Assembly: GCA_963802965.1 (NCBI GenBank)
Contig: CAWDKS010000003.1
Coordinates: 202,819-266,818, forward strand
Direction: 5' to 3'
Length of the DNA stretch: 64,000 nucleotides
DNA from: an uncultured Verrucomicrobiae bacterium
GTDB lineage: Bacteria > Verrucomicrobiota > Verrucomicrobiia > Limisphaerales > UBA11358
The translations under genes and the position numbers were made by a program. This document shows positions 1,893 through 62,450 of the stretch, piece after piece. The notes below the pieces were generated by a model. It had not been told where the DNA came from. It saw only the letters and a list, made by a program, of their open reading frames with translations, and did no database searches. Positions within the stretch are counted from its first letter, which is position 1, and the number at the start of each line of letters is the position of its first letter.

Positions 1893-3455
<1,563 letters not shown>

Positions 3456-3596
3456 ACCAAGGGTCCGCGATAAAAAGCGGACTTTGAGGTCGAACCCCGG
3501 TGCAAACCGGGGGACTAGGCTCAACACCTTATCGCACAGTTCAGTTTTCCAATGGGCAGTCATGCTCTTTGGCAAGTGGAAGAGAATCGAACTCGA

Positions 3597-3666
3597 GATT
3601 TACGATATATGATTTACGATTGGGGTGCCGGTTGGTTGGCCAATCGTAAATCCGAAATCGTAAATC
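3597..3666. repeat. inverted repeat with 7-nt-periodic arms (AATCGTA units) in the 16S-tRNA spacer
   Basis: The left arm gatttacgatatatgatttacgatt (3597-3621) is complementary to the right arm aatcgta aatccga aatcgta aatc (3642-3666). The loop is ggggtgccggttggttggcc. Confidence 0.8.
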
Positions 3667-3677
3667 AAAAATGGGCT

Positions 3678-3753
3678 GGGGCTGTAGCTCAGTTGGTAGA
3701 GCGGTAGCTTTGCAAGCTATAGGTCAGGAGTTCGAGTCTCCTCAGCTCCACCA
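3678..3753 (+). tRNA. tRNA-Ala (TGC), CCA encoded
   Basis: Hand-folded cloverleaf: acceptor GGGGCTG/CAGCTCC with G3:U70, anticodon loop TTTGCAA, T-loop GGTTCGAGTCC-like. Confidence 0.95.
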
Positions 3754-3784
3754 GCCTTCGCTCGCAGCGAAGCAAGAGCGAGGC

Positions 3785-3815
3785 TGCCGCGCCGGAGCGA
3801 AGCGAAGGCGGGCGG
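3785..3815. repeat. 31-nt motif TGCCGCGCCGGAGCGAAGCGAAGGCGGGCGG, copy 1
   Basis: Lies about 30 nt downstream of tRNA-Ala. Near-identical copies occur at 3972-4002 and 31801-31831. Confidence 0.8.
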
Positions 3816-3873
3816 TTGAGCGCACACCGAAGTTTGAGTGCTGCGAGCTACGGCTCGGCAGGCCGGAAATTCC

Positions 3874-3950
3874 GGGCGTGTAGCTCAGTTGGTTAGAGCA
3901 TGCGCTTGATAAGCGCAGGGTCACTGGTTCGAGTCCAGTCACGCCCACCA
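3874..3950 (+). tRNA. tRNA-Ile (GAT), CCA encoded
   Basis: Acceptor GGGCGTG/CACGCCC, anticodon stem TGCGC/GCGCA with loop TTGATAA, T-arm CTGGTTCGAGTCCAG. Confidence 0.95.
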
Positions 3951-3971
3951 TTTTTTCGCTCCGCGGAAAAA

Positions 3972-4002
3972 TGCCGCGCCGGAGCAGAGCGAAGGCGGGC
4001 GG
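3972..4002. repeat. 31-nt motif TGCCGCGCCGGAGCAGAGCGAAGGCGGGCGG, copy 2
   Basis: Lies about 20 nt downstream of tRNA-Ile and differs from copy 1 at two adjacent positions. Confidence 0.8.
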
Positions 4003-4175
4003 GACATGGTCTCCACTTGCAGAAACAATTTTACCGGAACGGATTGTCCGGGCTCAAAAGGCTTGGACAAAAAGGTTCGGGATGTTCTTTGACAACTACA
4101 CATAGGTAATTCTAGGGCAAATACAGTTCGTTGAGTTCCTGCAACCTCGAAGGAGGTTGTTAGGTAAACTTTTGT

Positions 4176-7076
<2,901 letters not shown>

Positions 7077-7200
7077 TTTTTCTTTGCCTGTAGCCGCGAA
7101 CTTCGGTTCGCGAACTCCAGTCAGGGATTGGCGAATTTAACTCGCGAATTGGGAATGCCCAAAGAATCCTGTGTGTAGTTTTCAGAGAACGTTGTTCTTT

Positions 7201-7290
7201 GTCAGTAGTTGGCAGTCAGTAGTCAGCAGCGTGGGAATTGGGAAAGTCTGTTCCCTGCTAAGAGCAAGGATTGCTGACTGTTAACTGAAT
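7201..7290. repeat. 7-nt-periodic repeat (GTCAGTA units) with a partial inverted partner, in the 23S-5S spacer
   Basis: gtcagta gttggca gtcagta gtcagca at 7201-7228, with the complementary ttgctgactgttaactga at about 7271-7288. The same unit family is found inside mfd at 34711-34792. Confidence 0.6.
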
Positions 7291-7294
7291 ACTT

Positions 7295-7410
7295 TTTGGT
7301 GGCCTTAAAGCTGTGGTCCGACCCGATCCCATTCCGAACTCGGCCGTCAAACACAGCGTTGCCGATGGTAGTAGTCCTATAGGTTCTGCGAGAGTAGGTA
7401 GCCGCCAGTC
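7295..7410 (+). rRNA. rrf: 5S ribosomal RNA
   Basis: Helix I TTGGTGGCC/GGTAGCCGCCAG, plus the conserved CCGAACTC...GCCGATGGTAGT...GCGAGAGTAGG. Confidence 0.93.
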
Positions 7411-8815: not shown

Positions 8816-8886
8816 GTAGCAGCCGAGGTGACGAGGCTCAAATTTTTGGTCAAATCTAGTTAGAGCCGGCTCACGCCGGCTGCTAC
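8816..8886. repeat. palindromic element, TGTAG family (intergenic, rmuC-ridA)
   Basis: The arms are GTAGCAGCCGAGGTGACGAGGCTC (8816-8839) and GAGCCGGCTCACGCCGGCTGCTAC (8863-8886). Both are 24 nt and the pairing is imperfect. Confidence 0.75.
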
Positions 8887-9310: not shown

Positions 9311-10231
9311 TCAAAGATATTTTGCCAGAATGGGTTTCAGCTCGGTAACAGTTTTCTTCGGCCAGAACTTTTTGTCGGTCAGGATGGCGTTCTTGAGCGC
9401 GGAATGACATGGCCAGTCCGGTTCGGCGGGAATTTCGGCGATGGCGGCGGTGACGATTTTTTTCGCCGTGTCGGCGTTGCGATGCAGGTTGCCGATGATC
9501 ATTGCCAGCGTGACGTGTTCGTCCTCCTTCCAGCAATCGTAGTCGGTGGACATCGCGAGCGTGGCGTAGGCGATTTCCGCTTCGCGGGCGCATTTGGCCT
9601 CGCCGAGGTTCGTCATGCCGATGACGTCATATCCGGCGCGGTGGTTGGTGAGCGATTCGGCGCGGGTGCTGAACGCCGGGCCTTCCATGTTCACATAGGT
9701 GCCGCCATCGTGAATCGTCACACTTCGGAGGGACGAGCTACGCGAGTCCCTGTTTGAAATCTTGGGAATTGGGGACTCGTGTAACTCGTCCCTCCCAACT
9801 TTTAATAAAATTTGCCGCAGTTCCTCGCAAATTGGATGCGCAAACGCGACGTGCGCCACGATGCCGCGGCCAAAAAAGGTGTGGGCCAGCGATTGTTTGG
9901 TGCGGTCCACAAACTGGTCAACGAGCACGATGTCGCAGGGCTTGCATTTTTCCTGCAACGACCCGACGGCGCTGACGCTGATGATCCAGGCGACGCCGAG
10001 TTTTTTCATCGCCCAGATATTGGCCCGATGGTTGAGTTCGCTGGGCAGGATGCGGTGGCCCCGGCCATGCCGCGGCAGAAAGACAATGTCGCGCCCGGCC
10101 AATTTGCCGGTGAGCAAATCATCCGATGGCGGACCAAAGGGCGTCCTGACCTTCACCCATTTTTGCCCCGTGAAGCCTTCGATGTTGTAGAGGCCGGTGC
10201 CGCCGATGATGCCGATGCGATAATCAGACAT
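9311..10231 (-). CDS. mtnP: S-methyl-5'-thioadenosine phosphorylase
   Basis: IGIIGGTGLY, FLPRHGRGH and GMTNLGEAKCAREAEIAYATLAMSTDYDCW. The protein carries a 23-codon repeat-derived insertion (see repeat 9727..9795). Confidence 0.88.
   Translation of the reverse strand: MSDYRIGIIGGTGLYNIEGFTGQKWVKVRTPFGPPSDDLLTGKLAGRDIVFLPRHGRGHRILPSELNHRANIWAMKKLGVAWIISVSAVGSLQEKCKPCDIVLVDQFVDRTKQSLAHTFFGRGIVAHVAFAHPICEELRQILLKVGRDELHESPIPKISNRDSRSSSLRSVTIHDGGTYVNMEGPAFSTRAESLTNHRAGYDVIGMTNLGEAKCAREAEIAYATLAMSTDYDCWKEDEHVTLAMIIGNLHRNADTAKKIVTAAIAEIPAEPDWPCHSALKNAILTDKKFWPKKTVTELKPILAKYL
9727..9795. repeat. palindromic element (GGAGGGACGAG...CTCGTCCCTCC) in frame inside mtnP
   Basis: 24-nt arms GGAGGGACGAGCTACGCGAGTCCC (9727-9750) and GGGACTCGTGTAACTCGTCCCTCC (9772-9795) with 2 transition mismatches. 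The total is 69 nt, or 23 codons. Confidence 0.8.
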
Positions 10232-31498: not shown

Positions 31499-35128
<3,630 letters not shown>

Positions 35129-35220: not shown

Positions 35221-36309
35221 GTGCATCTGGCTCATTTGCGGCTGCGGGATTTTCGCAATTTTGCCCGGCTGGACGCGGATTTCGCGCCCGGCTTCCATCT
35301 GCTTTTGGGCGACAACGCGCAGGGCAAGACGAACATCCTCGAAGCCATCTATCTCATGGCCACGCTGCGGTCGTTCCGCGGCGTCGGCGGCGCGCAGATG
35401 ATCCGGCACGGCGCGAAGGGTTATTTCGCCGGCGGCAGCGTGGTGGGGCAGGGCGGCCACGAAATCAAAATCTACTGGTCGGCGCGCGAACGCAAACTGG
35501 CGCTGGACGGACAGCCGGTTAAACGCCTCGGCGATTATCTCGGCGTGTTGCGCACGGTGGTCTTTTGCACGGAGGATTTGCATCTGGTCAAGGGCACGGC
35601 ACGCGCTCGCCGGCGGTTTTTGGATCTGCTGCTGGCACAGACACGGCCCGGCTATCTGCCGCTGCTTCAGCGTTACATGCGCACCATCCGCGCCCGCAAT
35701 GCGCTGCTCAAACAACGCGCGATGGACGAGGCCGCGCTGGACAGTTTTTCGCAGGAACTCGTCAAGCTCGGCGACGAAATCATCCGCGCGCGCCGCGAGC
35801 TGGCGCCGAAATTCTCTCCATTGGCACGGCTGGCGTATCGCCGCATCTCGAACGAAGCGGAGGAATTACGGATCGAATATCAGCCGGGCGTGAAAAAGGA
35901 TTTCGCCGTGGAACTGGCGCAATCGCGTTCGCGTGAACGGACCTATCGCTCCACGCTCGTCGGCCCGCACCGGGACGATTTGCAATTGCTGCTCAACGAA
36001 AAATCCGCCGCGCATTTCGGCAGCGAGGGCCAGAAGCGCACGCTGGCCATCGCATTGAAGATGGCGCAGGCGGAATTTCTCACCGGCATCCACGGTTCGC
36101 CGCCGATTCTGCTGATTGACGACGTGATGGGCGAACTGGACGTGAAGCGCCGCAGCGGTTTTTTGCCGTTGCTGGATTACGCGCGCAAAAGCAGCGGACA
36201 GGTATTCATGACCGCCACCGAGGAAAACTGGCCGAGCGAACTCGGAAAAGATTTGCAGCGGTGGGAAGTTGTGAACGGAGCGTTGAAGCGTGATTTGTTG
36301 AAGCGTTGA
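35221..36309 (+). CDS. recF: DNA replication/repair protein RecF
   Basis: Probable GTG start at 35221 (VHLAHLRLRDFRNF); the ORF track starts at 35125. Walker A LLLGDNAQGKTNILEAIY, signature GSEGQKRTLAIALKMAQ, Walker B LLIDDVMGELD. Confidence 0.88.
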   Translation: MHLAHLRLRDFRNFARLDADFAPGFHLLLGDNAQGKTNILEAIYLMATLRSFRGVGGAQMIRHGAKGYFAGGSVVGQGGHEIKIYWSARERKLALDGQPVKRLGDYLGVLRTVVFCTEDLHLVKGTARARRRFLDLLLAQTRPGYLPLLQRYMRTIRARNALLKQRAMDEAALDSFSQELVKLGDEIIRARRELAPKFSPLARLAYRRISNEAEELRIEYQPGVKKDFAVELAQSRSRERTYRSTLVGPHRDDLQLLLNEKSAAHFGSEGQKRTLAIALKMAQAEFLTGIHGSPPILLIDDVMGELDVKRRSGFLPLLDYARKSSGQVFMTATEENWPSELGKDLQRWEVVNGALKRDLLKR

Positions 36310-36362
36310 AGCGGCTTGCTCGTTCCGCGCTTTAACGCTTTAACGCTTCAACGCTTTAACTT
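36282..36362. repeat. inverted repeat with 8-nt units (TTGAAGCG / CGCTTTAA) spanning the recF stop
   Basis: gttgaagcg tgatttg ttgaagcg ttgaagcg (36282-36312) faces cgctttaa cgctttaa cgcttcaa cgctttaa c (36328-36360). The recF stop (36307-36309) lies in the left arm. Confidence 0.8.
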
Positions 36363-37339: not shown

Positions 37340-37348
37340 ATTCCCTTT

Positions 37349-37408
37349 GTAGGAGACGAGGTAACGAGGCTCAATTTTTGATCAGAGACTCCTCACGTCG
37401 TCTCCTAC
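37349..37408. repeat. palindromic element, TGTAG family, between convergent trpS and kpsF
   Basis: The arms are GTAGGAGACGAGGTAACGAGGCTC (37349-37372) and GAGACTCCTCACGTCGTCTCCTAC (37385-37408). The kpsF stop codon (37405-37407) lies in the right arm. Confidence 0.85.
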
Positions 37409-38376
37409 ATTATTTTCAGCTTCGGCAAATCCTGCGAATCCACCAGGCCGACCGGCTCGCGCTTCGCGTTCACGACGATCAAATCGTCAATGTTCCGCTC
37501 GTTGAAAATTTTCAAGGCTTCAACCGCCAAAGCCTCGTGACCAATGCAAATCGGATGGCGCGTCATCACCTTTTTCAACGGCCGGGCCAGCAGATTTTCG
37601 TCCGTGGCCATGCACCGGCGGAAATCGCCGTCGGTGAAAACGCCCACGAGTTTGCCGCGCGCATTGACGACGCTCAGGCTGCCGGACCTGGCCTGCGTCA
37701 TCACCAGCAACGCCTCCCTGACCGGCAGGTTTTCGCCCGCAACCGCGTTGCGTTCGCCGGCGCGCATGATGTCGCCCACGCGCAACAGCATCGCGCGGCC
37801 AATCGCGCCGGAGGGATGAAATCGCGCGTAATCCTTCTGCTTGAATCCGCGCGCCTGCAACACCGCCATCGCCAGCGCGTCGCCCATCACGAGCATGGCC
37901 GTCGTGCTGCTCGTCGGCGCGAGATTGAACGGACAGGCTTCCTTCGGAACTTTGACGTTCAGGGAAACGTCGCTGTGTTTGGCGAGCGATGATTTCAAAT
38001 TGCCGGTGAGTGAAATGATTTTGACGGAAAATCTCTTGAGCGCGGGCAGCAGGTTGAGCAATTCCTCCGACTCGCCGGAGTAGCTCAACGCCAGGACCAC
38101 ATCGCCGTCGGCGATGATGCCGAGGTCGCCGTGCAAGGCGTCCACGCTGTTGAGCACGACGCTGGGCGCGCCGGTGCTCGTCAAGGTCGCGGAAATTTTC
38201 TGTCCGACGTTTCCCGATTTGCCGATGCCGACCACGACGATTTTCCCGCGTTGCCGCAGCGCCTCCACCATCAGCTCAACCGAGAGGTCAAAGGTTTTGC
38301 CCAACTGCGCGCGCACGGCCTTCAACGCGGCGAGTTCGATGTCGAACACTTTGCGGGCTTGGTCAAGATGGCTCAC
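37405..38376 (-). CDS. kpsF: arabinose-5-phosphate isomerase (KpsF/GutQ family)
   Basis: SIS domain VVVGIGKSGNVGQKISATLTSTG plus two C-terminal CBS domains. The start codon is GTG. Confidence 0.9.
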   Translation of the reverse strand: MSHLDQARKVFDIELAALKAVRAQLGKTFDLSVELMVEALRQRGKIVVVGIGKSGNVGQKISATLTSTGAPSVVLNSVDALHGDLGIIADGDVVLALSYSGESEELLNLLPALKRFSVKIISLTGNLKSSLAKHSDVSLNVKVPKEACPFNLAPTSSTTAMLVMGDALAMAVLQARGFKQKDYARFHPSGAIGRAMLLRVGDIMRAGERNAVAGENLPVREALLVMTQARSGSLSVVNARGKLVGVFTDGDFRRCMATDENLLARPLKKVMTRHPICIGHEALAVEALKIFNERNIDDLIVVNAKREPVGLVDSQDLPKLKIM

Positions 38377-51666: not shown

Positions 51667-51668
51667 AT

Positions 51669-51702
51669 GGTAGGGTGCGTCACTCCGTGCGCGCCGCCCT
51701 AC
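51669..51702. repeat. GC-rich hairpin (REP-like) between hoxY and hoxH
   Basis: GGTAGGGTG ... CGCCCTACC encloses cgtcactccgtgcgcgc. Confidence 0.6.
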
Positions 51703-51706
51703 CGGA

Positions 51707-53146
51707 ATGAATTTATCAATTATGTCAAAGCGTATTGTCATTGATCCGGTGACCCGCATTGAGGGCCATGCCAAGATCAGCATCTTCATGGACGACGCGG
51801 GCAATGTGTCCGACGCCGTATTCCATGTCGTGGAATTCCGCGGTTTCGAGAAATTCTGCGAAGGCCGGCCCTACGGCGAAATGCCCGGCATCACCCCGCG
51901 CATCTGCGGCATCTGCCCCGTCAGCCATTTGCTCGCGTCAGCGAAGGCCGGCGACGCCATCATGGCCGTCAACATCCCGCCCGCCGCCGACAAGCTGCGC
52001 CGGTTGATGAACCTCGGCCAGATCATCCAGAGCCACGCGTTGAGTTTCTTTCATCTGAGCGCTCCGGACTTTCTGCTCGGCTGGGACACGCCCCCGGCCA
52101 AGCGGAATGTTTTCGGCATCATCGCTTCCAACGCCGATCTCGCCCGGGCCGGCATCCGGTTGCGCCAGTTCGGCCAGGAAATCATTGAAATCCTCGGTGG
52201 CAAAAAAATCCATCCCGCATGGGCCGTGCCCGGCGGCGTGCGCAGCCCGTTGACGGAGGAAGGCCGCGCGAAAATCCGCGCCTGGCTGCCGGAGGCCTTC
52301 GCCACCACGAAAGTCGCCTTCGACCTTTTCGAAAAGACGCTCGCGACGCATGAAAAGGAGGTCCAAATCTTCGGCAATTTCCCGTCGCTGTTCATGGGCC
52401 TCATCACCCCGGACGGCACCTGGGAACATCACGGCGGCAAACTGCGGTTCAGCGACAGCAGCGGCAGCATCATCGCCGACCAGCTCGACCCGCAAAAGTA
52501 TTACGAATGCATCGGCGAGTCGGTGCAAAATTCGTCCTACCTCAAGTCGCCCTACTACAAGCCGCTCGGTTTTCCCGACGGCATGTATCGCGTTGGTCCG
52601 CTCGCGCGCCTGAACATCTGCGAGCAGATGGGCGTGCCGAAAGCGGACGCAGAGTTGAAAAAATTCAAGAAAATGGGCCATGGCGCGGTCACATCGTCGT
52701 TCCTTTACCACTACGCGCGGCTCATCGAAATTCTCGCGTCGCTGGAATACGTCGAGCGTTACCTGGACGACCCCGACCTGTTGAGCAACGAACTGCGCGC
52801 CGACGCCGGCATCAACAGCCTGCGCGGCGTGGGCGCGAGCGAAGCCCCGCGCGGCACGCTGTTCCATGATTACACCGTGGACCGCAACGGCCTGCTCCAG
52901 AAGGTCAATCTCATCGTCGCCACCGGCCAGAACAACCTGGCGATGAACCAGACCGTGGCGCAGATCGCGAAGCATTACGTGCATGGCAAGGACATTCCCG
53001 AACCGATGCTCAACCGCATTGAGCATGGCATCCGCTGTTACGATCCGTGCCTGAGCTGCTCGACTCACGCCGTCGGCCAGATGCCTTTGCGCGTGCAACT
53101 CATCGCGCCGGACGGCACCGTGCTCAACGAAATGGCGCGCGGGTGA
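51707..53146 (+). CDS. hoxH: [NiFe] hydrogenase large subunit HoxH (group 3d)
   Basis: [10 protein letters not shown]-terminal [10 protein letters not shown], and C-terminal DPCLSCSTH followed by a 25-aa extension. An alternative start is at 51722 (MSKRIVIDP). Confidence 0.93.
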
Positions 53147-54074: not shown

Positions 54075-56531
54075 GTGAACGCGCCGCCAGCAACGCGATT
54101 GAAGATCGCCGTGCGCGGCGCGGTGCAGGGCGTCGGGTTTCGCCCGTTCGTTTTCCGCCTCGCCACCGGACTCGGCCTGGCCGGCTGGGTCAACAATTCC
54201 CCGCGGGGCGTCTTCATTGAAGTTGAAGGCCCGCGCGCGTCGCTCGAAAAATTCCTGCTCCGCCTCGAAGCGGAAAAGCCGCCGCGCAGCTTCATTCAAA
54301 GCCTCGAAACGTTGTGGCTCGATCCGGCCGGTCAGACCGGTTTTGAAATCCGCGCGAGTGAAACCGGCGGCGGCAAAACCGCGCTCGTCTTGCCGGACAT
54401 CGCCACCTGTCCCGATTGTCTGCGCGAAATTTTTGATCCCAAGAACCGGCGGCACCGCTATCCATTCACGAATTGCACGAATTGCGGGCCGCGCTTCAGC
54501 ATCATCGAATCCCTGCCTTACGACCGCGCGAACACCTCGATGAAATCGTTCACGATGTGCCCGCAATGCCGGGCCGAATACGACGACCCACTAGACCGCC
54601 GTTTCCACGCGCAGCCCAACGCCTGCCCGGTCTGCGGACCGCGCCTGACGCTTTGGGAGTGCGGCGACATGTCGCCGCTTTCAAAGCGCGGACATGTCCG
54701 CGCACTCCAAAATAACAATGCCTTGCTCGCTGCCGCTGAATCCATCCGCTGCGGTAAAATCGTCGCCGTCAAGGGACTGAGCGGATTTCATCTGATGGCG
54801 GATGCGCGCAACGACAAGGCCGTCCGGCTCCTGCGAAAACGAAAACATCGCGAGGAAAAGCCATTCGCCCTGATGTTTCCATCACTCGAAAGCGTGAAAG
54901 CCGAATGCGAAGTCTCCCCACTCGAAGAACGATTACTCCGCTCATCGGAGGCACCCATCGTTCTTTTGGAAAAAATCGTAAATCGCAAATCGCAAATCGT
55001 AAATGCCGTGGCTCCCGGCAATCCCAATCTCGGCGCGATGTTGCCGTCGAACCCGCTGCATCATCTGCTCATGGCCGAACTGGGCTTTCCGGTCGTCGCC
55101 ACCAGCGGCAACCTGGGCGACGAACCGGTTTGCACGGATGAACATGAGGCGCGGGAACGTCTCGGCCGCATCGCCGATGTGTTTCTGGTTCATAACCGCC
55201 CCATCGTCCGTCACGTGGACGATTCGATTGTGCGCGTCATGCTGGACCGTGAACTGGTGCTGCGCCGCGCCCGCGGCTACGCGCCGCTGCCCATTCAACT
55301 CGTAGGAGCCGACGTGAGGAGGCTCAACCTTCAAGAACAAAATGAGTCAGAGCCTCCTCACGTCGGCTCCTACAAAACAATTCTGGCCGTTGGTGCGCAC
55401 CTGAAAAACACCGTCGCGCTCGCCGTCGGCAATCAGGTTTTCCTCAGCCAGCACATCGGCGATTTGGAGACGGAACCGGCGCATGCCGCCTTCCGCCGTG
55501 TCATTGCTGATTTCCAGAAACTTTACGACACCCGGCCGCAAATCATCGCCGCCGATTTGCACCCGGATTATCTCTCGACCAGATTTGCGCGTGAATTCGG
55601 CGATGCGCCGTTGGAGTTCACGCTTCAGCGTGTTCCGAAAGCGCAGACGACAGGCAAGCTAAAGCTTGAACTCCAACACGTTGGCGTCCAGCACCACGTC
55701 GCCCATGTCCTGTCCTGCATGGCGGAGAATGAAATCGCGCCGCCCGCGCTCGGCGTTTCGTGGGACGGCACGGGTTACGGGCTTGACGGCACAATCTGGG
55801 GCGGTGAATTTTTCCTCGTCACCAACGAAACCGTCGAACGGGTCGCGCATCTGCGCCCGTTCCGGTTGCCCGGCGGCGACAAGGCGGTCAAGGAACCGCG
55901 CCGCACCGCGCTCGGATTGCTATACGAAATTTCCGGCGACAAGGTTTTCAAACGGAAAAAACTGGCAACGATTGCCGCTTTTTCGGCGGCGGAAATGGTC
56001 ACGCTGAAAACGATGCTGGCCAAAAAATTGAATTCGCCGCTTTGTTCCAGCGCGGGCCGGTTGTTCGACGCCGTCGCCTCGCTCGTCAATCTCCGCCAGC
56101 ACATCCGGTTTGAAGGCCAGGCCGCGATGGACCTGGAATTTGCGCTGGATGGCGTGGACACAGACGAGACTTATCCCTTGTCACTCGTCACTCGTCACCC
56201 GTCACTGGTCCTGGATTGGTCGCCGATGATTGAGGCGATTTTATCGGACGTGCAAAATGGCGTTCCCGGTGGCAGGATTTCCGCGAAGTTTCACAACGCG
56301 CTGGCCCAGGCCGTGGTGGCCGTGGCAAAAAAAATCGGCGAACGGCGCGTGGTGTTGAGCGGTGGCTGTTTTCAAAACCGTTATCTGACGGAGCGAACGG
56401 TGCGGCGGTTGCAGGCGGAAGGGTTCCGCCCGTATTGGCACCAGCGCGTGCCGCCCAACGACGGGGGAATCGCGCTGGGTCAGGTCCTGGCGGCGTTTCG
56501 AGAACGGCAGATCGTAAATCGTAAATCATAA
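54075..56531 (+). CDS. hypF: carbamoyltransferase HypF
   Basis: GTG start. Acylphosphatase domain (VRGAVQGVGFRPFV), two zinc fingers (CPDCLREI...CTNCGPRFSI, CPQCRAEY...CPVCGP), YrdC-like (VAVKGLSGFHLMADA) and Kae1-like (VQHHVAHV) domains. Contains six repeat-derived segments. Confidence 0.92.
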   Translation: MNAPPATRLKIAVRGAVQGVGFRPFVFRLATGLGLAGWVNNSPRGVFIEVEGPRASLEKFLLRLEAEKPPRSFIQSLETLWLDPAGQTGFEIRASETGGGKTALVLPDIATCPDCLREIFDPKNRRHRYPFTNCTNCGPRFSIIESLPYDRANTSMKSFTMCPQCRAEYDDPLDRRFHAQPNACPVCGPRLTLWECGDMSPLSKRGHVRALQNNNALLAAAESIRCGKIVAVKGLSGFHLMADARNDKAVRLLRKRKHREEKPFALMFPSLESVKAECEVSPLEERLLRSSEAPIVLLEKIVNRKSQIVNAVAPGNPNLGAMLPSNPLHHLLMAELGFPVVATSGNLGDEPVCTDEHEARERLGRIADVFLVHNRPIVRHVDDSIVRVMLDRELVLRRARGYAPLPIQLVGADVRRLNLQEQNESEPPHVGSYKTILAVGAHLKNTVALAVGNQVFLSQHIGDLETEPAHAAFRRVIADFQKLYDTRPQIIAADLHPDYLSTRFAREFGDAPLEFTLQRVPKAQTTGKLKLELQHVGVQHHVAHVLSCMAENEIAPPALGVSWDGTGYGLDGTIWGGEFFLVTNETVERVAHLRPFRLPGGDKAVKEPRRTALGLLYEISGDKVFKRKKLATIAAFSAAEMVTLKTMLAKKLNSPLCSSAGRLFDAVASLVNLRQHIRFEGQAAMDLEFALDGVDTDETYPLSLVTRHPSLVLDWSPMIEAILSDVQNGVPGGRISAKFHNALAQAVVAVAKKIGERRVVLSGGCFQNRYLTERTVRRLQAEGFRPYWHQRVPPNDGGIALGQVLAAFRERQIVNRKS
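54652..54712. repeat. nested palindromic element inside hypF
   Basis: Outer arms TTTGGGAGTGCG and CGCACTCCAAAA enclose the palindromes GGCGACATGTCGCC and GCGCGGACATGTCCGCGC. It is translated as WECGDMSPLSKRGHVRALQN. Confidence 0.8.
54974..55001. repeat. tandem heptamers AATCGTA AATCGCA AATCGCA AATCGTA inside hypF
   Basis: Four 7-nt units followed by aatgcc, translated as IVNRKSQIVN. The unit family is the same as at 3642-3666 and 56510-56537. Confidence 0.85.
55302..55373. repeat. perfect 24-bp-armed palindromic element, TGTAG family, in frame inside hypF
   Basis: GTAGGAGCCGACGTGAGGAGGCTC (55302-55325), a 24-nt loop, then GAGCCTCCTCACGTCGGCTCCTAC (55350-55373). The total is 72 nt, or 24 codons (VGADVRRLNLQEQNESEPPHVGSY). 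Confidence 0.92.
55611..55676. repeat. palindromic element, TTGGAGTTCA family, in frame inside hypF
   Basis: The arms are TTGGAGTTCACGCTT (55611-55625) and AAGCTTGAACTCCAA (55662-55676), with 1 mismatch. The total is 66 nt, or 22 codons (LEFTLQRVPKAQTTGKLKLELQ). Confidence 0.88.
56181..56208. repeat. tandem heptamers TCACTCG TCACTCG TCACCCG TCACTGG inside hypF
   Basis: Four 7-nt units, translated as SLVTRHPSLV. Confidence 0.8.
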
Positions 56532-57984: not shown

Positions 57985-58005
57985 ACCAGCCATGAAGAAA
58001 CACTC

Positions 58006-58100
58006 AACAACCAACATCCAACACCGAACATCCAATTTTTCCCGGAAAGGCAGACGCAGATCCTTCGATGTTGGGCGTTGGATGTTCGATGTTCGATGTT
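58006..58100. repeat. inverted repeat with AACATCC/AACATCG heptamer arms between hypD and hypE
   Basis: aacaacc aacatcc aacaccg aacatcc (58006-58033) is complementary to tcgatgttgggcgttggatgttcgatgttcgatgtt (58065-58100). Confidence 0.85.
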
Positions 58101-58117
58101 TTCAATTCTGATTTTTT

Positions 58118-62363: not shown

Positions 62364-62378
62364 AACATTTTTTATCTT

Positions 62379-62446
62379 GTAGGAGCCGAGGTAACGAGGC
62401 TCATAATTTGTATTTTCAATTAGAGCCTCCTCACGTCGGCTCCTAC
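62379..62446. repeat. palindromic element, TGTAG family, between the DHOD-like gene and the PFOR gene
   Basis: GTAGGAGCCGAGGTAACGAGGCTC (62379-62402) and GAGCCTCCTCACGTCGGCTCCTAC (62423-62446). The right arm is identical to the hypF copy. Confidence 0.9.
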
Positions 62447-62450
62447 AGTT

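What the first reader, a model, noticed from the sequence alone, without database searches (positions are those of the whole stretch)
9727..9795. Related 24-nt-armed palindrome inserted in frame in the MTA phosphorylase gene
GGAGGGACGAGCTACGCGAGTCCC / GGGACTCGTGTAACTCGTCCCTCC has 2 transition mismatches and totals 69 nt (23 codons). It lies inside mtnP and is translated on the minus strand as ELHESPIPKISNRDSRSSSLRSV, about 10 residues upstream of the conserved GGTYVNMEGPAFST block. Arm length (24 nt), loop size and the internal CGAG..AC..GAG pattern parallel the TGTAG family, although the sequence differs. That suggests a superfamily with a common architecture. The encoded protein (306 aa) is longer than the MTAPs I recall.
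Basis: partly seen in the sequence, partly recalled or inferred. Interest (0 to 1): 0.65.

Follow-up and report, generated by a model that had tools for sequence, protein, structure and literature searches.

The report
Mobile hairpin repeat inside MTAP gene
A 69-75 nt hairpin-forming repeat of the REP/REPIN type sits in frame inside a housekeeping enzyme gene (methylthioadenosine phosphorylase) of a Verrucomicrobiota bacterium and adds about 20 amino acids to a variable loop; this kind of repeat inside genes is already known from this phylum, so the case is real but not a new kind of thing.

Summary
Window 9727-9750 and 9772-9795 form a 24-nt-armed palindrome with 2 transition mismatches. It extends to 27-nt arms at 9724-9798 and lies in frame inside a 306-aa mtnP gene. 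Solved MTAP structures and about 70 metagenomic orthologues lack these residues, so it is a derived insertion of about 20 aa.

It is not unique. The unit YCGGA-GGGAC-GAG-N5-CGA-GTCCC, usually as inverted dimers with a variable spacer, is dispersed in many Verrucomicrobiota MAGs. A GTAG-tagged sister family occurs in Pirellulales. Copies lie between genes and in frame inside Mfd, AroB, XseA, LigA and PurM, using every open frame. The window's hypF carries three more in-frame palindromes from other families.

Best reading: a REP dimer (REPIN-like element) tolerated in an indel-prone loop and translated as a passenger. Intragenic REP dimers encoding 20-30 aa are already described, most abundantly in Opitutus terrae (PMC3733652), and as RPEs in Rickettsia. 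So this is a new member of a known kind.

Three points go beyond that. The insert is kept in frame across orthologues down to 79% nucleotide identity. Its arms evolve about 2.5 times slower than neutral sites. The same site holds a different GTAG REPIN in other lineages. No cognate RAYT transposase could be found in the sequence held.

The parts
9311..10231 (-). mtnP (S-methyl-5'-thioadenosine phosphorylase) ORF, 306 aa, host gene of the insertion
   Evidence: ORF list. TIGR01694 scores 298.5 bits against a cut-off of 274.85. E = 6e-78 to PDB 4glf and 1e-67 to 1v4n. The orthologous neighbourhood T2SSE ATPase - MTAP - RidA - RmuC is conserved in L200-L202, L204 and L208.
9724..9798 (.). Whole palindromic element (REP dimer / REPIN-like), including the outer TTC/GAA extension of the family consensus; encodes residues 145-170
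   Evidence: I4: 27-nt arms, 89% complementary. Family consensus ttC|GGAGGGACGAG-N5-CGAGTCCC ... GGGACTCG-N5-CTCGTCCCTCC|Gaa from 46 full copies. Residue mapping.
9772..9795 (-). Arm that is 5' in the mRNA (unit with TTACA pentamer); encodes G146-S153 (GRDELHES). Intra-arm 5-bp stem GGGAC/GTCCC at 9788-9792 / 9772-9776.
   Evidence: Intra-arm covariation in other family copies is shown.
9751..9771 (-). Spacer (hairpin loop), 21 nt; encodes P154-N160 (PIPKISN). Evolves at the neutral rate among orthologues.
   Evidence: loop identity is 0.65/0.60/0.73 by codon position, against 0.665 for third positions of the flanking gene.
9727..9750 (-). Arm that is 3' in the mRNA (unit with CTACG pentamer, read on the + strand); encodes R161-R169 (RDSRSSSLR). 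Intra-arm stem at 9730-9734 / 9746-9750.

Best explanation
The palindrome is one copy of a dispersed family of REP-type repeats of Verrucomicrobiota. The unit is YCGGA-GGGAC-GAG-N5-CGA-GTCCC, a short tagged stem-loop. Two units in inverted orientation around a variable spacer form a REPIN-like dimer. In an ancestor of a subgroup of Limisphaerales-like bacteria, one dimer replaced the 4-5-residue turn between a helix (about residues 133-150) and the following strand (TIHDGGTYVNMEGP) of MtnP. It landed in an open frame and added a multiple of three bases, so it is read through as about 20 extra hydrophilic residues in a loop that tolerates indels. The enzyme stays under purifying selection. The peptide sequence itself is incidental, because other copies in other genes are read in every frame that lacks a stop. 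Shown here: family membership, derived state, in-frame retention, ordinary purifying selection on the rest of the gene, slow evolution of the arms, and absence of a target-site duplication. Inferred: mobilisation as single-stranded hairpin DNA by a RAYT-type (IS200/IS605-like Y1) transposase; surface exposure of the loop; and that the slow arm evolution comes from homogenisation (quasipalindrome correction between arms, or conversion from other copies) or from selection on the hairpin.
For: Derived insertion: it is absent from the aligned archaeal MTAPs in the PDB, human 1cb0 is split at the same point (query 146), and bacterial 4glf has only a short loop there. It is also absent from about 70 orthologous metagenome loci. 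Of the 120 closest proteins, 38 have no insert, 70 have this insert (8 of them with an extra 6-aa partial duplication), 9 have a 9-aa insert and 3 have a different insert.

46 full dimers give the consensus, with spacers of 10-45 nt, no flanking direct repeat and no length bias towards multiples of 3.

REP-like unit: of 22 non-canonical units, 8 are GGGCC/GGCCC and 4 are GGGGC/GCCCC, that is, compensated within an arm. The core is identical to a GTAG-tagged Pirellulales family.

Same family in frame in real genes, with Pfam domains on both sides of or spanning the insert: Mfd, AroB, XseA, LigA zinc finger, PurM; plus M19 dipeptidase, a DUF255 thioredoxin-like protein and an MmeI-type enzyme. 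Frames seen are RDELHES, EGRVTRVP and GTSYTSP for the forward arm, and GTRVTRPS and (R/G)DSxSSSL for the reverse arm. The reverse frame that contains TAR is used only when the pentamer lacks the stop.

The gene is functional with the insert: flank identity by codon position is 0.89/0.93/0.665, and all insert length variants differ by whole codons.

The loop is permissive: non-palindromic expansions of +9 to +17 aa at the same place in L151, L152 and L184, and +6 in 4glf.

Precedent: intragenic GTAG REP dimers encoding 20-30 aa, most numerous in the verrucomicrobium Opitutus terrae, about 70 entries (PMC3733652).
Against: The GTAG tag that defines the best-studied REP superfamily is not present in this family; the prefix is TCGGA or CCGGA in 71 of 157 units. 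No RAYT gene flanked by these units was found. A profile of 13 RAYT/TIRYT sequences hit only two ORFs among 10,566 from all held loci and the window, and neither is flanked by this repeat. However, only 8-kb snippets around repeat copies were available. The arms are conserved at all three codon positions (0.82/0.89/0.87), well above neutral, which a pure passenger model does not predict without homogenisation. The presence/absence pattern among orthologues does not fit a single gain on the gene tree. The exact insertion junctions cannot be reconstructed: 60 nt net gain for a 75-nt element.
Confidence: 0.8

Rival explanations
1. The hairpin is kept in mtnP because it does something there. It could act as an intra-ORF RNA structure, for example as a ribosome pause, an RNase III entry site or a protection against decay. 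Or it could act as a DNA structure, so that selection on function rather than mere tolerance explains its persistence.
For: Arms are conserved at all three codon positions (0.82/0.89/0.87), against 0.665 at third positions of the flanking gene and 0.60-0.73 in the loop. The window and L207 share 50 of 51 arm positions although the genes are only 80% identical. In L120 a double change (GAC to GGC in one arm, TCC to CCC in the other) keeps the inter-arm pairing. The sense-strand hairpin is very stable (-48.3 kcal/mol).
Against: The palindrome has visibly decayed in several insert-bearing lineages (L204, L206, L129, partly L120 and L205). Close relatives do well without it (286-aa genes at 0.90 nucleotide identity). 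The same family sits in many unrelated genes in all open frames and between genes. Homogenisation between arms or with other copies explains the conservation without any function. No Rfam family matches.
Confidence: 0.1
2. It is a conventional MITE: a deletion derivative of a DDE-type insertion sequence whose 24-27-nt arms are terminal inverted repeats, moved by cut-and-paste.
For: Inverted termini and small size are compatible with a MITE. No RAYT was found next to a copy.
Against: There is no target-site duplication at 46 copies; flanks beyond TTC/GAA show no direct repeat or conserved target. At 58-107 nt with a spacer as short as 10 nt, it is smaller than usual MITEs. Each arm is itself a stem-loop that covaries internally, which is the REP signature. 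Single units and clusters of units occur (L067, L009). The core is shared with a GTAG-tagged family.
Confidence: 0.07
3. It is a lineage-specific loop expansion of MtnP that arose in place, by slippage or duplication, and is palindromic by accident.
For: The same loop does carry non-palindromic expansions in other lineages (L151, L152, L184).
Against: Identical arms occur at dozens of unrelated loci in many genomes. A 24-nt inverted repeat is not expected by chance.
Confidence: 0.01

Closest known systems
Intragenic GTAG REP dimers of Opitutus terrae (Di Nocera et al. 2013, BMC Genomics 14:522, PMC3733652)
   Same: Same phylum. These are short tagged stem-loop units, mostly as inverted dimers, with several families per genome. 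Many copies lie inside known genes and are read through as 20-30 extra residues. DNA ligase and HypF are among the decorated genes, and the same two genes carry such inserts here (L086; window hypF).
   Different: The sequence family differs. None of the peptides RDEL, EGRV or TRPS occurs in that paper's list. The tag is YCGGA rather than GTAG/GTGG. The host is a different order (Limisphaerales-like MAGs). MTAP is not in their list. That paper did not trace orthologous retention or arm conservation across species.
REPINs mobilised by RAYTs (Bertels & Rainey 2011, PMC3116915; PMC3337134)
   Same: [quoted passage not shown] Dispersed, vertically persistent sequence populations. No target duplication.
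   Different: REPINs are described as extragenic and tied to a single-copy RAYT flanked by the same REPs. Here a sizeable fraction of copies is intragenic, and no cognate RAYT could be shown.
Rickettsia palindromic elements (RPE; Ogata et al. 2000 and 2002, as cited in PMC3733652 refs 13 and 14)
   Same: Palindromic repeats inserted in frame into housekeeping genes that stay functional, adding a peptide segment.
   Different: Different phylum and sequence. RPE-1 is longer (about 100-150 bp, from my own knowledge). RPE-4 and RPE-6 belong to the CGTC-tagged REP class.
GTAGGGTGGGACGAG-N5-CGAGTCCCACC repeat of Pirellulales MAGs
   Same: Identical core GGGACGAG-N5-CGAGTCCC and the same inverted-dimer layout.
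   Different: It carries a true GTAG tag and an 8-bp stem (GGTGGGAC/GTCCCACC) instead of YCGGA and a 5-bp stem, and it is found in Planctomycetota.

Membership tests
REP / REPIN (GTAG-type repetitive palindromes) | Short GC-rich stem-loop unit present in many dispersed copies | tested here: met
About 50 loci carry the tagged Verrucomicrobiota-type unit, with several loci per MAG, for example DAIRTX01 L046/L047/L076 and CAYMCQ01 L064/L073/L078. Intra-arm compensated variants are seen. The copy number in the source genome itself could not be measured; there is 1 copy in 64 kb.
REP / REPIN (GTAG-type repetitive palindromes) | Conserved GTAG (or GYAG/GTRG/GTGG) tetranucleotide at one end of the unit | tested here: not met
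   The prefix is TCGGA (52) or CCGGA (19) of 157 units, and the MTAP copy has TTCGGA / TTGGGA. The tag is present in the sister Pirellulales family and in the window's TGTAG family.
REP / REPIN (GTAG-type repetitive palindromes) | Two units in inverted orientation with a short spacer (dimer able to form a long hairpin) | tested here: met
   46 full dimers with spacers of 10-45 nt. The window copy has 24-27-nt arms and a 21-nt spacer.
REP / REPIN (GTAG-type repetitive palindromes) | A RAYT (Y1/HUH transposase) gene flanked by the same REP units | tested here: inconclusive
   E. coli RayT with phmmer gave no hit. A profile of 13 RAYT/TIRYT sequences taken from PMC3733652 Additional file 5 hit 2 ORFs (L152, L116), neither flanked by this repeat. 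Only the window and 8-kb snippets were searchable.
REP / REPIN (GTAG-type repetitive palindromes) | No target-site duplication | tested here: met
   The flanks of 46 copies show only the palindromic TTC/GAA extension and no direct repeats.
Rickettsia palindromic elements (RPE) | In-frame insertion in a conserved protein-coding gene whose reading frame stays open | tested here: met
   ORF intact, MTAP model above cut-off, purifying selection on the flanks, and insert length variants all in whole codons. Translation itself is not testable with these tools.
Rickettsia palindromic elements (RPE) | Sequence membership in one of the RPE families of Rickettsia | not tested
Different phylum, and no reason to expect sequence homology.
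MITE (DDE-transposon derivative) | Target-site duplication flanking terminal inverted repeats | tested here: not met
MITE (DDE-transposon derivative) | A parent IS with matching terminal inverted repeats | not tested
   It would need whole genomes.
MtnP / MTAP (host gene) | Match to the curated equivalog model above its cut-off | tested here: met
   TIGR01694: 298.5 bits against 274.85.

The most novel reading that the evidence does not exclude
Intragenic REPINs of these Verrucomicrobiota may be actively maintained rather than dead passengers. The arms would be under nucleotide-level selection or continual conversion. A resident REPIN in a coding loop would act as a landing pad that other REPIN families or alleles replace, or that spreads between lineages by short-patch recombination. 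That would explain the GTAG-type REPIN at the same MTAP site in L200/L201, the patchy presence among close relatives, and three families inside hypF. It would make hairpin repeats a regular, site-specific source of protein-loop turnover and possibly of intra-ORF regulation.
Probability: 0.12. Interest if true: 0.7.

Novelty: new member of a known kind. Interest (0 to 1): 0.4.

Why it matters
For this scan, it means that long palindromes inside ORFs of this genome are REP-type repeats read through as protein. They should not be taken for frameshifts, introns, assembly errors or new regulatory RNAs. Four such cases lie in two genes within 64 kb.

More generally, it extends the intragenic-REP phenomenon from one cultured Opitutus genome to a large set of uncultured soil and peat Verrucomicrobiota. 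It also shows the same unit core in Planctomycetota.

It offers a clean natural experiment: orthologous mtnP genes with no insert, with this insert in intact or decayed form, or with a different REPIN at the same place. That series could be used to test three things. Do REPIN arms persist by selection or by conversion? Can a -48 kcal/mol hairpin inside an ORF affect translation or mRNA decay? How much insertion does the MTAP helix-strand turn tolerate?

Tried and rejected
1. Structure prediction to place the insert. AlphaFold2 on a 15-sequence alignment gave mean pLDDT 37.4 and was unusable. The available homologues are all at least 77% identical, so a second job was not spent. The position (helix-to-strand turn) is taken from the PDB sequence alignments.
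2. Rfam. No family matches at the element; the only low-scoring hits are microRNA models.
3. Intrinsic terminator or promoter at the element. None was reported, though the scan only counts loops of 3-8 nt.
4. RAYT search in held sequence. No cognate gene was found.
5. Looking up the window's own MTAP to identify the source record. It is not on record.
6. Recombination breakpoints that would explain the patchy distribution. Sliding-window identity shows none.
7. Reconstructing exact insertion junctions from filled and empty sites. The flanks are remodelled, with a 60-nt net gain for a 75-nt element and the ancestral 'CKAx' turn missing.
8. The NJ protein tree interleaves the insert types. I do not trust it to count gains and losses.

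Full report
**Observation.** There are two 24-nt arms with two transition mismatches around a 21-nt spacer. The repeat finder extends them to 27 nt (9724-9750 / 9772-9798, I4). The degenerate arm pattern occurs nowhere else in the window even with 3 mismatches, and never in 100 shuffles. The sense RNA would fold at -48.3 kcal/mol (z = -8.75). The + strand folded as single-stranded DNA gives z = -7.46.

The element lies in the 306-aa ORF 9311..10231 on the minus strand. That ORF is an MTAP by the curated model TIGR01694 and by strong matches to solved MTAP structures. The 69 nt encode residues 146-169, (G)RDELHESPIPKISNRDSRSSSL(R).

**It is a derived insertion.** In the printed alignments to archaeal MTAPs (1v4n, 2a8y), query residues about 148-170 have no counterpart. 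Human 1cb0 is matched as two stretches whose first ends at query 146. The bacterial 4glf has only a short loop there. Among 80 orthologous metagenome loci (68-91% identity), about 70 have an invariant-length 23-residue span (consensus LRQLLLKSARALKARVHDGGTYV) with no insert.

Among the 120 closest database proteins, all from Verrucomicrobiota / Limisphaerales-type MAGs where named, the counts are as follows:

| Type | Number | Notes |
|---|---|---|
| No insert | 38 | 286 aa |
| This insert | 62 | GRDELHESQ - variable 6-8 aa - RDSxSSSLR |
| This insert plus partial tandem duplication | 8 | extra 18 nt; e.g. GRDELYRRDELHES |
| 9-aa insert | 9 | |
| Different insert | 3 | GRDVVGRVAP...GVTRPT |

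Gene order around MTAP (T2SSE ATPase, MTAP, RidA, RmuC) is conserved, so these are orthologues.

**It belongs to a dispersed repeat family.** Some are chance single hits in high-GC Actinobacteria. About 50 loci carry the tagged Verrucomicrobiota-type unit, and almost all of those among the 80 listed records come from Verrucomicrobiota MAGs, often several per MAG.

Forty-six full dimers give the consensus ttC|GGAGGGACGAG-N5-CGAGTCCC - spacer 10-45 nt - GGGACTCG-N5-CTCGTCCCTCC|Gaa. They show no flanking direct repeat and no preference for lengths divisible by three.

Each arm is itself a small stem-loop, GGGAC ... GTCCC. Among 22 units that depart from the canonical stem, 8 are GGGCC/GGCCC and 4 are GGGGC/GCCCC. 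These are compensated within the arm, even where the partner arm keeps GGGAC/GTCCC. That is the behaviour of a REP unit, with the dimer corresponding to a REPIN.

Pirellulales MAGs carry a sister family with the same core but a true GTAG tag and a longer stem (GTAGGGTGGGACGAG-N5-CGAGTCCCACC). The window's own TGTAG family has intergenic copies at 8816-8886, 37348-37409 and 62378-62447, plus one in hypF. It shares the architecture (tag, 5-bp stem, 10-11-nt GAG..TA..CGA loop) but only modest sequence similarity.

**Intragenic copies are common and read in any open frame.** Stop-free frames spanning family copies in other MAGs are real genes. Pfam domains flank or span the insert in these cases:

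- Mfd (L014)
- 3-dehydroquinate synthase (L064)
- exonuclease VII large subunit (L083)
- the zinc-finger domain of NAD-dependent DNA ligase (L086)
- PurM (L107)

An M19 dipeptidase (L042), a DUF255 thioredoxin-like protein (L076) and an MmeI-type enzyme (L032) also carry copies.

The forward arm is read as RDELHES, EGRVTRVP or GTSYTSP. The reverse arm is read as GTRVTRPS or (R/G)DSxSSSL. The reverse frame that normally contains TAR appears only in a copy whose pentamer lacks the stop. So no particular peptide is selected; what survives is whatever is in frame and free of stops.

In the window itself, hypF (54075..56531, 818 aa) contains three in-frame palindromes from three other families. Each coincides with a gap in the solved HypF 3vth (query 200-213, 413-433, 511-533).

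**How the MTAP copy evolves.** Nine insert-bearing orthologues with DNA in hand were compared by codon position:

| Region | Identity at codon positions 1 / 2 / 3 | Reading |
|---|---|---|
| Flanking gene | 0.89 / 0.93 / 0.665 | ordinary purifying selection on a working enzyme |
| Spacer (loop) | 0.65 / 0.60 / 0.73 | neutral |
| Arms | 0.82 / 0.89 / 0.87 | flat across positions, about 2.5 times slower than neutral |

The window and L207 share 50 of 51 arm positions while the genes are only 80% identical. In L120 a double change keeps the inter-arm pairing. In other lineages (L204, L206, L129) the palindrome is decaying.

The spacers of all these inserts are recognisably homologous (CAA AYT TCC ... 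AAA TCA GAT/AAC), which argues for one origin. All length variants differ by whole codons.

I read this as nucleotide-level constraint or homogenisation of the arms. Candidate causes are template-switch correction of quasipalindromes (my own knowledge), conversion from other copies, or selection on the hairpin. This acts on top of simple tolerance at the protein level.

**The site.** The insert replaces the short turn (ancestral ...AR-xCKAx-VHDGG) between a helix and the strand that leads into the EGP motif. The same turn carries non-palindromic expansions of +9 to +17 residues in L151, L152 and L184, and +6 in 4glf. So it is an indel-tolerant loop.

In L200/L201 the same place holds a different, GTAG-tagged REPIN with 28-31-nt arms (TGGTAGGGCGTGTCGCTCCGCGCGCGCCGTT...). 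A truncated copy of that family lies in the window at 51668-51705. The 9-aa insert of L202/L125 contains CGTCACTCCGT, the core of that family's arm, and may be its remnant; this is a weak inference.

**Unresolved points.**

1. Insert-free genes (L208, L128; 0.90 and 0.89 nucleotide identity to the window gene outside the insert) are closer to the window than insert-bearing L207/L127/L129 (0.79-0.80). The NJ tree interleaves the types. No recombination breakpoint is visible. Deletion cannot regenerate the ancestral turn. Short-patch exchange between lineages or a misleading gene tree remain possible.
2. The exact junctions cannot be reconstructed (60 nt net gain, 75-nt element).
3. No RAYT flanked by this repeat was found, but only snippets were searchable.
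4. The structure prediction failed.

**Comparison with what is known.** Di Nocera et al. (PMC3733652) sorted REPs into GTAG- and CGTC-tagged superfamilies. They noted that units are mostly arranged as inverted dimers. They listed REPs inside genes, most numerous in the verrucomicrobium Opitutus terrae (about 70 entries) and in Rickettsia conorii, where they equal RPE-4 and RPE-6. More than half were dimers or grouped repeats encoding 20-30 residues, and DNA ligase and HypF were among the hosts. They also saw different REPs at about the same site of recB in two Xanthomonas species. REPINs and their RAYT transposases are described in PMC3116915 and PMC3337134.

The present element works like these and fits every tested feature except the GTAG tag itself. 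The RAYT link is untested in practice. Its sequence family is not in that paper's list, and I found no paper on such repeats in Pedosphaera / Limisphaerales.

**Verdict.** It is a new member of a known kind. Interest is moderate, mainly for the orthologous series (empty, intact, decayed, or replaced by another family) and the slow-evolving arms.

Noticed in passing
window 54075-56531 (+); palindromes at 54652-54712, 55302-55373, 55610-55677: hypF (818 aa) carries three in-frame palindromic inserts from three different families. The middle one is a perfect 24-nt-armed copy of the GTAG (TGTAG) family. Each coincides with a gap in the solved HypF 3vth (query 200-213, 413-433, 511-533).
   Followed up: partly
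window 8816-8886, 37348-37409, 62378-62447: Intergenic copies of the TGTAGGAGCCGAGGTAACGAGGCTC / GAGCCTCCTCACGTCGGCTCCTACA dimer family. The two arms regularly differ in the loop (GAGGTAACGAG vs GACGTGAGGAG), i.e. they are heterodimers.
   Followed up: partly
window 51668-51705: GGTAGGGTGCGTCACTCCGTGCGCGCCG directly followed by CCCTACC. It looks like an internally deleted copy of the GTAG-tagged REPIN family that occupies the MTAP insertion site in L200/L201. It lies just upstream of the ORF 51707..53146.
   Followed up: partly
window 3597-3666: 27-nt-armed palindrome built from GATTTACGAT-like repeats, located just after the 16S rRNA gene (ends 3445) and immediately before the first spacer tRNA (3678-3750) of the rRNA operon 1893-7410. 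A similar aaatcgtaaatcgtaaac string flanks a family copy in L111.
   Followed up: no
window 57998-58101, 32846-32924, 34720-34793, 36297-36352: Inverted repeats whose arms are made of short tandem motifs (AACATCC/AACACC, CAGTCCACAG, AGTCAGTAG, GTTGAAGCG). They form another class of palindromes in this window.
   Followed up: no
window 32579-32633 and 55610-55677: Two copies of a GTTGGAGTTCA...TGAACTCCAAC palindrome family, one of them inside hypF.
   Followed up: no
L009 4038-4401: Three tandem repeats of about 171 bp, each containing one unit of the family next to a GGGCC/GGCCC-variant unit. This is a clustered arrangement rather than a simple dimer.
   Followed up: no
L067 4983-7445 (+), insert at about aa 322-356 and beyond: A large 821-aa stop-free frame, not checked against Pfam, carries a cluster of at least three forward arms (EGRVTRVP x3) and two reverse arms (GDSQSSSL x2) in frame. 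That is about 60 residues of repeat-encoded sequence.
   Followed up: no
L152 2969-3385 (+): A Y1/HUH transposase ORF of the TIRYT-like type (E = 4.5e-27 to a RAYT/TIRYT profile) lies about 600 nt downstream of the MTAP gene of another lineage. It is cut off by the end of the locus, and its flanking repeats were not examined.
   Followed up: partly
L116 4823-5509 (-) and flanks: A RAYT-like ORF (HVH and Y motifs) in a locus carrying the GTAG-tagged (Pirellulales-type) sister family. It is bracketed by other repeats (tcgtggcctcgcgcgggccg.tggccctgcggttaaacgaacta on both sides, and a roughly 70-nt unit three times upstream), not by the GGGACGAG family present 2.3 kb away.
   Followed up: partly
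MTAP orthologues P0001-P0120; L120-L208: Presence of the insert is patchy. Insert-free genes at 0.89-0.90 nucleotide identity to the window gene are nested among insert-bearing genes spanning 0.79-0.92. No breakpoint is visible.
   Followed up: partly
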